Positions 1,193-64,000 are shown, numbered from the stretch's first letter. The stretch: 64,000 bases of DNA from Spironucleus salmonicida (GCF_000497125.1 NC_090597.1:941797-1005796), one strand, 5' to 3'. The notes: generated by a model not told the origin, from the letters alone. A program made the numbers and translations.

Positions 1193-3973
1193 ATGACAGA
1201 CACGGGGACTTGCTCAAATGCCGTCTTCAACTGCAAGGCTGGTTATTTCTGCCCTGCAGAAGATTCAACTACCGTAGAATGTCAACCGTGCTAGGAATAT
1301 ATGGAATATGGTTAAAGTTGCTACTGTGAAGATACCAAACCAATAAAGAACTGTCAAGCATGTACGGGCAAGCAGTGCTCTACATGCGTGCGTAATACAT
1401 TTTTATAAAATGACAAATGCATAAATTGTCCTTTATACTGCGATACCTGTGCAAACGCAAATTCTTGCATTACGTGCTCCGAAGGCTACGAAAAGAACCC
1501 ATATACTGGTCTTTGTGAGTTATCCTGTAAAAGCGAAGATGGATGTCTGCCAGTCGGATTATATTTCGGTGATCCAAGTACATAAATGTCTATACCTTGC
1601 ATTGCGAATTGCATTATTTGCTCTTCAACCACCACTTGCGATTTTTGCCACCCTAAAGGATTTGTCATTACACTAACAGGCCAATGCACTAAGAAATGCG
1701 ATGATATTCAAGACGGATATTACTGTGAAGACGGAGTTGCAAAGCTTTGCGATGATGATCTGACGGCAGAATGTACATGTGGCAATGCCTCCTATTGTGC
1801 TTCTTGCCATTCCACTGGGAAAAGGTGCGAAAAGTGTTTGCCAAATATGAACTTTAACACATCTGGCGAATGTGCAGTTTGCTATGACGGATTTTCGCTC
1901 GAAAGTAGTCAGTGTATGCCCTGCACTGGAAGCTAATCATCTCCCTGCACATGCAAAACGGCGGAAAATTGTTCTACCTGCGATACCGATACGGGAAAAT
2001 GCAAAACATGCTAGGGAAATTATGATGTTAAAGGCGAGATTCCGTGTTAAAACTGCTTACCAGGATTTTATAAGTAAAACTCTGCCCTGGGTGATATTTG
2101 CATATCTTGCCTTGGTAATTGCAAAACCTGCTCTTCATACTCCACTTGCACAGTTTGCAATGATGAGTATGTGCTGTAAAGCGGTAAATGCGAAAAAACA
2201 TGTAAAGTAGGTGACGGTAGTTGCGCCATGAACCAAATCTGCGCCACAATCTGCAAAGATTGCACCGGAAACTGCGCCACGTGCAAGGGTTCTGTAGACA
2301 AGTGCGTGACCTGCAAATCCGGCTTTATCTTAGAAAATAATAAATGTACAGCGTGCGGCAAGGATTGCCTGAACTGCGACGGTGATAAAAGTAAGTGTAA
2401 CCTTTGCAAGGACGGATTTATTAACTTCGATGGAAGGTGCAGTATCTGCATTGGAAACACGACGTAAAAGTGCAAGTGCGGAATGGCCGAGAATTGCGCA
2501 ACATGTGGTGATAAAAATTCTAATGTTTGCGGAAACTGCTTACCCGGATTTTTCAAGGGAGCCGATGCGGGGAATAATACATGCAAAGCCTGCGATGAGA
2601 AATGCGCAACCTGCATCTCAGAAAACACCTGTTCATCCTGCAAAAATGGGGATATTTTAAGCGGGAATTCGTGCGCTGCCTGTACGACTATTTAAACTAC
2701 TGCCTGCATTTGCAAAGATGCCACAAACTGTCAAACCTGCGATTCTACTGATATGAGCAAATGCAAAACCTGAATCAACAATTTTGACCCAAATGGATAT
2801 ACCCCTTGCTAAAACTGCTTGCCAGGATTTTTCAAGGTGAGTGATTCCGGGAGTGATACTTGCACGGTATGCCCTGTTAACTGCACAACCTGTAACTCTG
2901 GATCAGTTTGCACAGCTTGTAAGGTCGAATTTTTACTCGAAGATGATACGTGCGTAGCCTGCGATGACGCTAACTGCAATGTCTGCCCAAGTAGAAAAGA
3001 TAGATGTGTATCATGCAAAGATGGTTTTTCCGTGGAAAAAGATGAATGTGCAAAACAGTGCATAAAAGATGAAGACAGCTGTGCTATGAACCAAATATGC
3101 GACGACATATGCAAAGACTGCACAAACAACTGTGCCACATGCAAGGATGCTGTAGACAAGTGCTTGACGTGTGAATCTGGCTTTATATTAGACAATGATA
3201 AATGTGTAGCGTGCCCCGATGGCTGCGCGAACTGTGACGGTGACAAAGCCATCTGCAAGGTTTGCAATGATGATTTTTTCACCGAAGATAATACCTGCAC
3301 TAAGTGTGAGGGAAATAATACGGAACAGTGCAAGTGCGGGGAAGCAGTTAACTGTGCTACCTGCGATTCTTCTGAGATGGGAAAGTGCGGAAACTGCATC
3401 ACCGGATACAAAAAAGCCACAAATGAGACCTGTTCAGCCTGCGCTGATGGCTATTTGATGGTTGGAATTGCCTGTGTGAAATGCAATAATAATTGTGCTA
3501 CGTGCTCAAAAAGCCTTGAAAAGTGCGATACATGCGTCAGGTCTTACAGCATTAGCATAAATTAAACGTGCGAGAAGGATTGTACGGAGGTACTGACAGA
3601 TGGCAAGGTGTGCGTCGCCGAAAAGATAGTGGATTGTGGAGCCAACAATCAGGTAACTGCGTGCAAATGCAAAGATGCTGCAAACTGCTTCAAATGCGAT
3701 AGTTCTGATAAGGGAAAATGCGAGTCCTGTATGACAGGCTATAAATTTGTAAATTAAAAGTGCGACAGCTGCGCGGACGGGCACACCACCGTTGGCTCGT
3801 TCTGCTTCCCCTAGGGTGATACGCTAAGTACCAACCTCTCTGGTGGCGCTGTTACAGGCATTATCATCGCAGTTCTAGTAGCTGTTGGTGGAGTCGCCGG
3901 TGGTATTTTTTGGTACATGAAGAAGTCAAAGCTTAATTAGGAGATTGACGAGTAGAAGTTTGTCCTGAAGTGA
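1193..3973 (+). pseudogene. Large cysteine-rich membrane protein (CRMP/VSP-like) gene, 927 codons, interrupted by one in-frame TGA at 2771-2773
   Basis: With TAR=Gln a single frame runs from ATG 1193 (MTDTGTCSNAVFNCKAGYFCP) through dozens of CXXC/CXC motifs. It ends in a TM segment (LSGGAVTGIIIAVLVAVGGVAGGIFWYM), the tail KKSKLNQEIDEQKFVLK and TGA 3971-3973. The internal TGA reads CKT*INNFDP where the paralog at ~33240 reads CKTCINNFDP. Confidence 0.85.
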
Positions 3974-5379
3974 TAATTTAAGTTATTTCAGATATTATGA
4001 TTATGTATATGGAGGCATCTTGTGATAATGAGAATATAAGGGTATAAAATTAGTAATTTACTATTATTAAATATGAAGAAGAATTCGAGTTACTTAAATC
4101 TTACATACTACTCACTATTTCTTCACAATATTGAAATACTCTGTTTATCTCCATTATATCATTAAGTAAGCGAACGTATACTAAATATTATAATTAATTT
4201 AGCAATCTTATCAATTCTGTGCTAAACTTTATCATTACATAACTATTTTGCGAAATTCAATTTTATGTCTTGCGTTGGATTGCAAAATTGGCTATGAAAC
4301 TTGGAATGGTATGAAATAGATATTGATAGTTTTAGTATGAGATTAGTATTTAATTGGGTAAGCGAATGACAAGTTGAGCATGCGTTGAACTATATTTTGC
4401 GGTTCTAAGTTTATATTTGATTGTTAATATAACTTTCTAATTTTCATACTATTTAAGATAATTATTTTAGGTTATGGGTATGATTTTTCTGTTTTGTGAG
4501 TCGATTTGTAATGTAATTGTGAGGAAATGGTCGTCAAAGCAAGATATAGTATAAAATGTATAAGAAGATTAAATTGTAGATTAAACTACTTTTGTAGTTT
4601 TTGAATACTTATATGTTGAATTTAATGATGAATACTTAGTGATTAATCATAATTGCCTTCTTCATTTCTATACTCTGATTATCTTCTACAATTGTAATTT
4701 AATAAGCATGTTAAGTAACTATTATAGTTCTATTTTATCAAAAAATATACTATGTATATTATATATTCTAATTATTATTTACACTTCTCTTCTATATAGG
4801 TTTTATGCATAGTATCACACCTAACAATCTGATGCCTAGTTAAAGTGAAAATTTTCTATTAAGGTATGCTATAGCAACACAGCTAACGCTATGAAAATAA
4901 TTATACTGTAATCAGTCTTGTAGTAGTTAATTCTATATGGTTCATGTAATTTATGCAACAATTATTTAATATTACCCCTGCTCTGTCGAGTGCACTTTTT
5001 TGAAAAAGTATAAATGTGCCCAAAGAGGAAAAGTTGCAAACTTATTTAATGGAAAATGCTCATATTCTTTTTATTTTGTTTTTCTTGTTGTGTTTCGTAA
5101 TATTCATTTTAATCGAATTCCGCTCCAGAATTGGAAAATCCACAAAATAACTCTTTGTCGAACAATCTTTAAATACTTGACCCAATAAATAATACAATAT
5201 ATCTGTGAAAAGAAAATAAGTATCTAAAGCTAATTTGGGCATAACTAGGAGCCATTACAAAATTAGAATTCAAAACTTATAATCTAAATTATAGCCATCA
5301 ACTTATTTCCATATCATAACTAAGATGTTATTTTAGTAAAAAAGAATTATTGTAAAATATTAGTAAAAATATATTTATT

Positions 5380-63183: not shown

Positions 63184-64000
63184 ATGAACAACTAGTGTAC
63201 TTCTACCGATAAAAATTCCTGCAGTGAAGGTACTTTCTGTCCATCAAACGCAGGAACTGAAGCAAAGGATTGCCTAGCCTGCAAATCAGATTGTGCCACC
63301 TGCACAGGATCATCTGCAGAAGCTACAACGTGTTTAACCTGCGCCGATGGTAAGTATCTTAACAGTGGATCCTGCGCAGACTGCGACGCCAAATGCGCAA
63401 CCTGCACAGCAGAGAACACGTGTCAAACCTGCACTAATGGGAACGTTTTAAGCGGAACCACCTGCACCGCCTGCGTTTCAGGGTAGACCATGAAATGTAC
63501 CTGCGGGTCTGCTGAGAACTGCTCTATTTGCGATGTTACTGATCCGACTAAATGCGACGTCTGCGCGAATGGACATTTCATGTCTGGGACTACCTGCACG
63601 GCTTGTAAAGCTAATCAAATGGCTCCGTGTACATGCAGTACCGCTGTTAACTGCGGAACCTGCGCTACTGATACAAGTAAATGCAAAACTTGCATCAACG
63701 GATACGATCCAACCGGGTCCACCCCTTGCGAGAAATGCAAACCTAAGTACTTCGAGGATACTTCTTAAACTCCTAACAAATGCACAGCTTGCTCTGTAAA
63801 CTGTGTAACCTGCTCTTCTAGCACCGTTTGCAGCGCCTGTGAAGATGGATTTTCTATCAAAGATAATAAGTGCATAGCCTGCACTACAAGCTAAACAACT
63901 GCCTGTACTTGCAAGGTTGCCAAAAATTGCTAAACATGTGATACTACCAATACGGGCAAATGTTCAACGTGTATAGGAAACTTTGACAAATCTGGAAGCA
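63184..64000 (+). CDS. CRMP, 5' part (truncated by the window end); diverged positional equivalent of 32736-34451
   Basis: MNNQCTSTDKNSCSEGTFCPSNAGTEAKDCLACKSDCATC... is open to 64000 with TAR=Gln. An in-frame upstream ATG lies at 63178. Confidence 0.9.

What the first reader, a model, noticed from the sequence alone, without database searches (positions are those of the whole stretch)
3485..64000. 30.5 kb tandem duplication whose junction lies inside a CRMP coding sequence and swaps its N-terminal half
Seen: continuous identity between units starts at 3485/33963, within the CDS. Genes 1193-3973 and 32736-34451 share the same last ~162 codons (membrane-proximal region, TM and tail) but have unrelated N-termini and upstream DNA. 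A third gene at the equivalent position (63184+) has another diverged 5' half. Inference: unequal crossing-over between CRMP paralogs amplified the block and created a new in-frame chimeric antigen, coupling copy-number change to antigen diversification.
Basis: partly seen in the sequence, partly recalled or inferred. Interest (0 to 1): 0.72.

Follow-up and report, generated by a model that had tools for sequence, protein, structure and literature searches.

The report
Published tandem repeat bounded by CRMP genes
Two neighbouring 30.5-kb copies of a gene block in the salmon parasite Spironucleus salmonicida are real and already in print, and the surface-protein-like gene at their joint is a patchwork of several sister genes, the ordinary result of recombination within this gene family.

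Summary
The window is Spironucleus salmonicida nuclear DNA, read with TAA/TAG = Gln. It carries two head-to-tail units with a period of 30,478 bp. Identity is unbroken from 3485/33963, inside a CRMP-2 coding sequence.

This is almost certainly the "tandem repeat of 64 kbp" on chromosome 9 reported by Xu et al. 2022 (PMC9509377). They checked it by PacBio pile-up and coverage.

- Gene A (1193-3973) has an in-frame TGA, so it is a pseudogene.
- A and B are still 74% alike for 800 bp left of the edge.
- The last 162 bp before the edge in gene B resemble the internal paralog D (151/162), not A (122/162).
- B's 5' half is only 59-86% like gene C.
- The right third of the units is a mosaic of perfect stretches and sharply bounded blocks of 77-97% identity.

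Best reading: homologous recombination between CRMP-2-bounded units, plus patchy gene conversion with other family members. Position 3485 is the end of an exchange tract, not a proven duplication breakpoint.

The scan had already noted CRMP mosaics 63 kb upstream in the same genome (e1-7141936).

Interest is low to moderate.

The parts
1193..3973 (+). Gene A: a CRMP-2-type gene of 926 codons, broken by an in-frame TGA at codon 527. Its last 162 codons are identical to gene B.
   Evidence: Translation. Full-length paralog P0019 (925 aa) has Cys at the TGA site. The 526-aa 5' product is on record from the older assembly's protein sets as P0017.
2771..2773 (+). In-frame TGA of gene A. The aligned codon in B is TGC.
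2687..3484 (+). Zone where A and B are homologous but diverged (74% identity). It is a mosaic with short stretches of perfect identity.
3485..33962 (+). Unit 1 of the tandem repeat, counted from the identity edge.
33963..64000 (+). Unit 2 of the tandem repeat. Its end lies beyond the window.
3485..23659 (+). Near-perfect tract; its twin is 33963-54140. It has 44 differing columns, 42 of them in the patch 18149-18874.
23660..33962 (+). Mosaic third of the unit; its twin is 54141 to about 64400. Ten sharply bounded blocks of 77-97% identity sit between perfect stretches.
32736..34451 (+). Gene B: an intact CRMP-2-type gene of 571 codons at the joint of the two units. It is a multi-parent mosaic.
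33794..33955 (+). D-like patch in gene B, immediately 5' of the identity edge.
   Evidence: 151/162 identical to D against 122/162 to A. Runs test: 3 of 10,000 shuffles reach the observed clustering.
63184..64000 (+). Gene C: the 5' part of the third CRMP-2-type gene at the equivalent position, cut by the window end.
20806..22689 (+). Gene D: an internal CRMP-2-type paralog of 627 codons. Its identical twin D' is at 51287-53170.
26054..26908 (-). Gene E: CRMP-1, 284 aa, with a KKARK tail.
   Evidence: Exact match to a deposited S. salmonicida CRMP-1 cluster. Motif.
56517..57371 (-). Gene E': the unit-2 twin of E. It has an in-frame TGA at 56787-56789 and is 79.9% identical to E. Its first 195 residues are 91-96% identical to a paralog on another contig.
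11584..13056 (-). Hexose transporter gene; identical twin at 42062-43534.
   Evidence: Pfam Sugar_tr, E = 2.5e-58. S. salmonicida hexose transporter cluster.
14715..17777 (-). 1020-codon ORF with no Pfam family. Its twin at 45194-48256 differs at one base (15919/46398).

Best explanation
This is a real two-unit tandem segmental duplication on a CRMP-rich chromosome of Spironucleus salmonicida, almost certainly the published 64-kb tandem repeat of chromosome 9. Its period equals the spacing of three same-strand CRMP-2 paralogs: A, B and C.

Most likely history. Unequal (non-allelic) homologous exchange between the CRMP-2 genes at the A and C positions duplicated the 30.5-kb block very recently. 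That left a hybrid gene B with a C-type promoter and 5' end and an A-type 3' end. Short gene-conversion events with other CRMP genes and with older copies of the block elsewhere in the genome then overwrote about a dozen patches. These include B's (or C's) 5' two-thirds and the 162 bp just left of the present identity edge.

The edge at 3485/33963 is therefore the end of an exchange tract, not necessarily the original crossover.

Shown: the period, the identity map, the mosaic make-up of B and of E/E', and the stop codon in A. Inferred: the kind of recombination and the order of events.
For: Species and genetic code.
- There are 0 ORFs of 250 aa or more under code 1, and 30 under code 6.
- Window proteins match S. 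salmonicida records exactly, on a contig of 1,877,751 bp.

The repeat is real.
- It is in print: a 33-kb self-match overlapping itself by 2 kb, giving a 64-kb tandem repeat, with PacBio coverage in line with neighbouring regions (PMC9509377, passages read).
- Both unit-specific versions of E/E' exist as separate proteins in the older assembly's protein set.

The exchange is recent.
- Outside 17 multi-site diverged blocks, only 5 single differences occur in about 23 kb.
- The near-perfect tract has an unremarkable GC of 0.359, against 0.367 for the window.

Layout fits unequal exchange.
- A, B and C lie one period apart on the same strand.
- B equals A from 33963 onwards.
- B's upstream DNA and 5' end align with C's at 59-86% and not with A's.

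Later patches.
- B 33794-33955 matches D at 151/162 and A at 122/162. B 33706-33793 matches A at 87/88.
- Informative sites form 31 runs among 102 sites; 3 of 10,000 shuffles give as few.
- B's best relative switches along the protein: P0025/P0020, then C, then P0018/P0024, then A, then D, then A.
- E and E' are 79.9% alike, yet E' residues 1-195 are 91-96% identical to P0014 on another contig.
- A residues 13-73 are identical to P0030.
Against: - If the duplication were one recent event, B's 5' half and the 10 kb upstream should equal C's. Instead ten diverged blocks crowd into the right 10 kb and only one lies in the left 20 kb. Random later patching does not predict that asymmetry.
- Several diverged blocks are AT-rich non-coding DNA with evenly scattered substitutions at 3-10%. 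This looks as much like residual old divergence as like imported patches.
- The D-like patch is 93% identical to D, not 100%, so D itself may not be the donor.
- No donor outside the window could be identified, because no whole genome was available.
- That this window is the published chromosome 9 repeat is inferred from species, size, period and tandem form. The paper mentions two 64-kb repetitive regions.
- The 20-kb near-perfect tract exceeds the PacBio read N50 of 14.6 kb, so the copy number rests on the authors' coverage check.
Confidence: 0.5

Rival explanations
1. The tandem pair is older and has been partly homogenised. The two units, with A/B/C at their borders, have been adjacent for long enough to diverge by 3-10% in non-coding DNA and by more in CRMP genes. 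One recent long-tract inter-unit conversion (or break-induced copying) made 3485-23659 identical to 33963-54140. Shorter tracts homogenised parts of the right third. On this reading the shared 3' end of A and B comes from conversion, not from the duplication event.
For: - The mosaic is strongly asymmetric: one patch in 20 kb against ten in 10 kb.
- AT-rich non-coding blocks show scattered point differences at 3-10%, like ordinary divergence.
- B and C differ by 14-41% in their 5' halves and upstream DNA.
- Single differences are denser in the perfect stretches of the right third (3 in about 3.5 kb) than in the left tract (2 in about 19.4 kb).
- Hexose-transporter paralogs at 96.9-98.7% protein identity on the same chromosome show that older copies of such blocks exist.
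Against: - A 20-kb conversion tract is unusually long.
- All perfect stretches are close to 0% diverged, which suggests one age rather than many events.
- E and E' are each closer to paralogs on another contig than to one another. Ectopic exchange must therefore be invoked anyway, which makes this the less economical account.
Confidence: 0.33
2. One unequal crossover exactly at 3485/33963, between two CRMP genes with unrelated 5' halves, created both the duplication and a new chimeric antigen in a single step. Nothing of note happened afterwards.
For: - Identity is unbroken from 3485/33963 onwards.
- B is in frame and intact.
- The upstream DNA of A and B is unrelated.
Against: - B's 5' half is not C's; they are 59-86% identical.
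- The 162 bp left of the edge in B resemble D, and an 88-bp stretch matching A at 87/88 lies just upstream.
- A and B are 74% alike over the 800 bp left of the edge.
- The right third of the units is a mosaic.
- Gene A carries a stop codon.
Confidence: 0.07
3. Assembly artefact. Two alleles, or two dispersed copies, were joined head to tail by the assembler, or an array of different copy number was mis-resolved.
For: - The 20-kb near-perfect tract is longer than the PacBio read N50 of 14.6 kb. The authors themselves say 64 kb may be the largest repeat the assembly could resolve.
- Short-read contigs laid here are only 100-700 nt long and cannot bridge the repeat.
Against: - The authors inspected the PacBio pile-up and found coverage in line with neighbouring regions and with the genome average. 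The chromosomes also fit optical maps.
- Allelic heterozygosity is 0.09% genome-wide, far below the 3-26% seen in the diverged blocks.
- Unit-1-specific sequence of gene B is present in independent short-read runs.
Confidence: 0.05

Closest known systems
The 64-kb tandem repeat on chromosome 9 of the S. salmonicida reference assembly (Xu et al. 2022, Sci Data, PMC9509377; passages read)
   Same: Same species, tandem form and size. The paper reports a self-match of about 33 kb with a shift of about 31 kb. Here the period is 30.5 kb and the self-match of 30.8 kb is cut by the window end. The region is CRMP-rich.
   Different: In the passages I read, the paper gives no account of where the unit borders lie, of the hybrid gene, or of the mosaic right third. 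The identification with this window is inferred, not shown by coordinates.
Recombination among Giardia lamblia vsp genes and their paired or arrayed organisation (Adam et al. 2010, BMC Genomics, PMC2996952; passages read)
   Same: A large family of cysteine-rich CXXC membrane-protein genes, arranged in arrays and duplicated pairs. There is statistical evidence of recombination between members, most clearly towards the conserved 3' region.
   Different: The Giardia cases are single genes or pairs about 3 kb apart, not 30-kb multi-gene units. VSPs have a CRGKA tail and proven antigenic switching. The genes here are CRMP-2 type, with no such tail and no shown switching.
Hybrid genes from unequal crossing-over between tandem paralogs, such as the haemoglobin Lepore/anti-Lepore and red/green opsin arrays (recalled from textbook knowledge; no call)
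   Same: Misaligned paralogs in the same orientation exchange, giving a copy-number change plus an in-frame hybrid gene. The hybrid has the 5' end of one parent and the 3' end of the other.
   Different: Here the 5' parent (C) no longer matches the hybrid, and the hybrid is a mosaic of at least four relatives. One crossover alone does not explain it.
Concerted evolution and gene conversion in segmental duplications and palindromes, as reported for other parts of this genome by earlier notes of this scan (e1-7142188, e1-7274174)
   Same: Long stretches kept identical between copies, with sharp borders that cut through genes.
   Different: Those notes describe GC-rich tracts. The near-perfect tract here has GC 0.359, no higher than the window's 0.367.

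Membership tests
CRMP-2 (cysteine-rich membrane protein 2 of S. salmonicida, as defined by Xu et al. 2014, PMC3916229) | Three or more CXXC or CXC motifs | tested here: met
   B has 35 CXXC and 4 CXC. A has 55 and 7. D has 40 and 3. The definition was read.
CRMP-2 (cysteine-rich membrane protein 2 of S. salmonicida, as defined by Xu et al. 2014, PMC3916229) | C-terminal transmembrane domain | tested here: met
   A hydrophobic stretch, GGAVTGIIIAVLVAVGGVAGGIFWY, lies 19 residues from the end of A and B. This was judged by eye; no predictor was run.
CRMP-2 (cysteine-rich membrane protein 2 of S. salmonicida, as defined by Xu et al. 2014, PMC3916229) | No [KR][KR]X[KR][KR] tail motif (the motif that defines CRMP-1) | tested here: met
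   A, B and D have no match. E and E' have KKARK and are therefore CRMP-1. Ten of the 19 relatives of B that were returned are named CRMP-2, including the six best.
Giardia VSP (Pfam PF03302; CRGKA tail) | Pfam VSP domain above the gathering score | tested here: met
   B scores 42.4 bits, A's 3' ORF 34.8 and D 31.6, against a cut-off of 31.4. E scores 19.8, below the cut-off.
Giardia VSP (Pfam PF03302; CRGKA tail) | Conserved CRGKA cytoplasmic tail | tested here: not met
   The tails end in ...KKSKLNQEIDEQKFVLK (A, B) and ...KKARK (E). The CRGKA feature was read.
Tandem duplication by one unequal crossover between flanking paralogs (Lepore-type hybrid) | Same-orientation paralogs at the outer borders and a hybrid gene at the joint, in frame | tested here: met
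   A, B and C are on the + strand, one period apart. B is an open frame of 571 codons.
Tandem duplication by one unequal crossover between flanking paralogs (Lepore-type hybrid) | The hybrid's 3' part equals the upstream parent and its 5' part equals the downstream parent | tested here: inconclusive
   The 3' part matches A at 100% from 33963. The 5' part is only 59-86% like C. C's 3' part lies outside the window, and its protein was not in the collection.
Tandem duplication by one unequal crossover between flanking paralogs (Lepore-type hybrid) | A single switch point in the hybrid | tested here: not met
   The parent changes at least four times within B 33150-33963.
Antigenic-variation gene family | Surface exposure and switching of expression between members | not testable with these tools
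   The 2014 paper localised three CRMP-1 proteins only and leaves antigenic variation open. No run on record as RNA holds the junction stretch.

The most novel reading that the evidence does not exclude
The exchange that made the 20-kb near-perfect tract is so recent that almost no point mutation has followed it. It joined an intact C-type promoter and ectodomain to the membrane anchor of a dead gene (A). This would make B a newly born, working CRMP-2. The locus would then be a live example of unit-scale unequal exchange and short-tract conversion creating new surface-protein variants on a timescale measurable between clonal lines or isolates.
Probability: 0.25. Interest if true: 0.45.

Novelty: already known. 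Interest (0 to 1): 0.28.

Why it matters
The repeat itself is a published feature of the reference assembly, so finding it again adds little. What the re-analysis adds is a base-level map of a very young duplication in a CRMP array:
- The unit borders sit in CRMP-2 paralogs.
- The joint gene is an intact mosaic, while its upstream neighbour is a pseudogene.
- Patches of one copy are closer to genes on another chromosome than to their tandem twin.

This is direct sequence evidence for the gene-conversion mechanism that the assembly authors only suggested for expansion of this family. It gives a locus where the rates of unit-scale exchange and of short-tract conversion could be compared between isolates. 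It does not show antigenic variation.

Tried and rejected
- **Whole genome.** None is held for this window. I could not search for donors of the diverged blocks or see the DNA beyond 64000.
- **Gene C's full-length protein.** I searched with its 274 N-terminal residues among longer proteins. Seven proteins were returned, the best 57% identical (P0038, a paralog), so C's 3' half could not be compared.
- **Exact look-ups.** 3 of 6 and 1 of 10 window ORFs are in the protein collection. B (three alternative starts), D (two starts) and A's 3' ORF are not. The homology search with B returned 19 proteins, none above 63% identity. I cannot tell whether B, C and D are annotated as pseudogenes, left unannotated, or simply missing from that collection.
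- **Sequencing runs.** No RNA holder is listed for 31500-35500. Eight runs from two studies hold part of it; four are labelled only 'RNA?', which is a guess.
- **Laying four runs on 22000-36000** gave only short contigs of 100-700 nt.
  - B-specific pieces are present in the DNA-type runs (for example 32408-32815 and 32978-33274) and in the two 'RNA?' runs (33308-33643, 33009-33166).
  - Of the 32 pieces listed, none bridges 33963; 546 further pieces were not shown.
  - Contig depth is not a copy number, so this neither supports nor refutes the joint or its expression.
  - A loose end at 33850, seen in three runs, leads into letters absent from the window. I read it as another paralog that shares the preceding words.
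- **Donors inside the window.** Apart from CRMP-to-CRMP matches of 77-81% and two short hits of 33-51 bp, none of the 12 blocks (both versions tested) has another match in the window.
- **GC-biased conversion signature.** The near-perfect tract (GC 0.359) is no GC-richer than the window (0.367). Diverged blocks in the right third (0.390) and perfect stretches there (0.371) differ little.
- **Literature.** A search for Spironucleus together with unequal crossing-over, NAHR, chimeric gene, CRMP2 or segmental duplication listed 15 of 1,617 papers, none holding 'Spironucleus'. This is a weak negative. The supplements and figures of PMC9509377 were not seen.
- **TGA in gene A as a sequencing error.** Rejected, because the 526-aa truncated product is also on record from the older, independently sequenced assembly's protein set.
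Full report
**What the window is**

Under the standard code no ORF of 250 aa or more exists. Under code 6 (TAA/TAG = Gln) there are 30.

Exact look-ups place window proteins in Spironucleus salmonicida records on a contig of 1,877,751 bp. These proteins are a hexose transporter, a 284-aa CRMP-1 and the 526-aa 5' product of gene A.

The cysteine-rich genes hit Pfam VSP (PF03302) above the cut-off: B 42.4 bits, A's 3' ORF 34.8 and D 31.6, against 31.4.

By the 2014 definitions, A, B and D are CRMP-2. 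They have many CXXC/CXC motifs and a C-terminal hydrophobic anchor, and they lack the [KR][KR]X[KR][KR] tail. E and E' are CRMP-1, with a KKARK tail.

**The observation**

- Self-BLASTN aligns 2687-33416 with 33165-63858 at 96.3%.
- A and B share their last 162 residues.
- A third gene of the same kind starts at 63184 (or 63178) and runs off the window.
- The duplication is far beyond chance.

**Already in print**

Xu et al. 2022 (PMC9509377, passages read) state the following:
- The largest self-match of the new assembly is on chromosome 9. It is 33 kb long and overlaps itself by 2 kb, giving a tandem repeat of 64 kb.
- Manual inspection of the PacBio pile-up showed coverage in line with neighbouring regions and the genome average.
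- Gene conversion may be involved in expanding the cysteine-rich families.

A period of 30.5 kb, with a self-match of 30.8 kb cut by the window end, fits this description. I infer that the window is that repeat. If so, the similarity must go on for about 2 kb past the window end, into a partial third unit.

The near-perfect tract of 20 kb exceeds the read N50 of 14.6 kb, so the copy number rests on the authors' coverage check.

**Fine structure of the units**

Of 30,832 aligned columns, 1,184 differ. They fall into 22 groups.

- *Left part.* From 3485 to 23659 there are a 1-bp indel at 13657, one substitution at 15919, and one patch at 18149-18874. That patch is AT-rich non-coding DNA with about 3% scattered substitutions and a few indels.
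- *Right part.* From 23660 to 33962 the units alternate between perfect stretches and ten sharply bounded blocks of 77-97% identity. The perfect stretches total about 3.5 kb and hold three single differences.
- *Content of the blocks.* One block is the whole CRMP-1 gene E (25843-26998, 86% identity). Others are non-coding, and some have a GC of only 0.20-0.24.
- *Last block.* It runs from 31779, through the upstream DNA and 5' two-thirds of gene B, to the identity edge.

**The genes at the unit borders**

*Gene A*
- It has 926 codons with TGA at codon 527. B has TGC there, and the full-length paralog P0019 (925 aa) has Cys.
- The truncated 526-aa product is also on record from the older assembly's protein sets. 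The stop is therefore not a PacBio error.

*Gene B*
- It is intact, with 571 codons.
- Upstream of 2687/33165, A and B cannot be aligned. From there to the edge they are 74% identical.
- B's upstream DNA and 5' end align with C's at 59-86% and not with A's.

*Switches of nearest relative within B*
- 33706-33793 matches A at 87/88.
- 33794-33955 matches the internal paralog D at 151/162, and A at only 122/162.
- From 33956 onwards B is A-like, and it is identical to A from 33963.
- The informative sites form 31 runs among 102 sites; 3 of 10,000 shuffles give as few.
- At protein level the best relative changes along B in this order: P0025/P0020, then C, then P0018/P0024, then A, then D (37-38 of 40), then A (40 of 40).

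*Other genes in the window show the same mosaicism*
- E and its tandem twin E' are only 79.9% identical.
- E' residues 1-195 are 91-96% identical to P0014, which lies on another contig. E's last 89 residues are 92-96% identical to P0014/P0015.
- E' also carries an in-frame TGA.
- A residues 13-73 are identical to the CRMP-1 P0030. C shares a 25-residue identical run with P0038.
- N-terminal and tail types are combined freely across the family.

**How it most likely arose**

Three same-strand paralogs lie one period apart. An in-frame joint gene shares its downstream DNA with the left gene and its upstream DNA with the right gene.

A single clean crossover at 3485/33963 does not fit, for three reasons:
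- B's 5' half is not C's.
- The last 162 bp before the edge resemble D.
- The right third of the units is a mosaic.

Two orders of events remain.

(a) A very recent duplication followed by about a dozen short ectopic conversions, from other CRMP genes and from older copies of the block. Hexose-transporter paralogs at 96.9-98.7% protein identity on the same chromosome show that such older copies exist. I put this at about 0.5.

(b) An older tandem pair in which a recent long tract homogenised 20 kb. I put this at about 0.33.

For (a):
- All perfect stretches are close to 0% diverged.
- Ectopic exchange is needed in any case to explain E/E'.

For (b):
- Diverged blocks crowd into the right 10 kb.
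- The AT-rich non-coding blocks show ordinary-looking divergence of 3-10%.

Under either order, 3485/33963 is the end of an exchange tract inside a CRMP-2 gene. Under (b) the shared 3' end is not a product of the duplication at all.

**Independent reads**

Eight public runs from two studies hold part of the junction stretch, and none is on record as RNA. Four runs laid on 22000-36000 gave only short contigs. B-specific pieces are present in both kinds of run. However, none of the 32 listed pieces bridges the edge, and depth cannot be read as copy number. I draw no conclusion on the joint or on expression from this.

**Comparison with what is known**

- The object itself is published.
- The mechanism class is textbook: unequal exchange and gene conversion in a multigene family.
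- It has a close parallel in Giardia vsp genes, where recombination between members and duplicated pairs are documented (PMC2996952, passages read).
- Unlike other conversion tracts noted in this genome (e1-7142188), the near-perfect tract here is not GC-enriched: 0.359 against 0.367 for the window. That fits a very young age.

**Verdict**

- Novelty: already known for the repeat. The increment is modest: the border anatomy, a pseudogene next to an intact mosaic gene, and twin copies that are not each other's nearest relatives.
- The word 'antigen' is not supported by any data seen. CRMP-2 localisation and switching are untested.

Noticed in passing
window 2771-2773 and 56787-56789 (minus strand): Two CRMP genes carry single in-frame TGA codons at otherwise conserved positions. 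In gene A, Cys (TGC/TGT) has become TGA. In E', the codon where E has Gly is TGA. Both truncated products are on record from the older assembly's protein sets (P0017, P0016), so they are real pseudogenes or truncated forms.
   Followed up: partly
window 2186-2485 vs 3044-3343: Gene A holds an internal direct repeat with a spacing of 858 bp (70-77% identity to the paralogs' module). This is a duplicated cysteine-rich module that makes A about 350 codons longer than B.
   Followed up: no
window 9007-9987, 10665-11427, 18882-19883 (+); 24989-25144, 30255-30716 (-); and their twins in unit 2: Further CRMP-like stretches, detected by tblastn and not covered by one long open frame. They are probably decayed family members, which makes each 30-kb unit a CRMP array with at least seven family elements.
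   Followed up: partly
window 11584-13056 (-) and twin 42062-43534: The hexose transporter belongs to a cluster of 11 sequences at 90% identity or more. Its named members are five records on the same 1.88-Mb contig (93.1-98.7% identical to the window's copy) and three on a 623-kb contig. That 623-kb contig also carries the closest relative of E'. Blocks of this type therefore seem to be dispersed segmental repeats.
   Followed up: partly
window 14715-17777 (-) and twin 45194-48256: A 1020-codon open frame with no Pfam family, and not found by exact look-up in the protein collection.
   Followed up: no
window 33850: Contigs of three runs (X1, X3, X5) follow gene B up to 33850 and then continue with letters absent from the window. 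At least one more paralog elsewhere shares the preceding words.
   Followed up: partly
window 5380-6600: A first-stage note on this window (e1-7141953) proposes a piggyBac-like transposase fossil here. The two ORFs I scanned nearby (4937-5515, 6408-7115) had no Pfam hit. I did not test the stretch itself.
   Followed up: no
proteins P0024/P0027, P0025, P0029 compared with window genes A, B, D: N-terminal types (MTDTGTCSN..., MSNMCSSS..., MLGTCSS...) occur with either the CRMP-1 tail (KKGKK/KKAKK) or the CRMP-2 tail in different family members. The CRMP-1/CRMP-2 split therefore cuts across ectodomain relatedness. This agrees with the 'intermixing' noted in the 2014 paper.
   Followed up: partly
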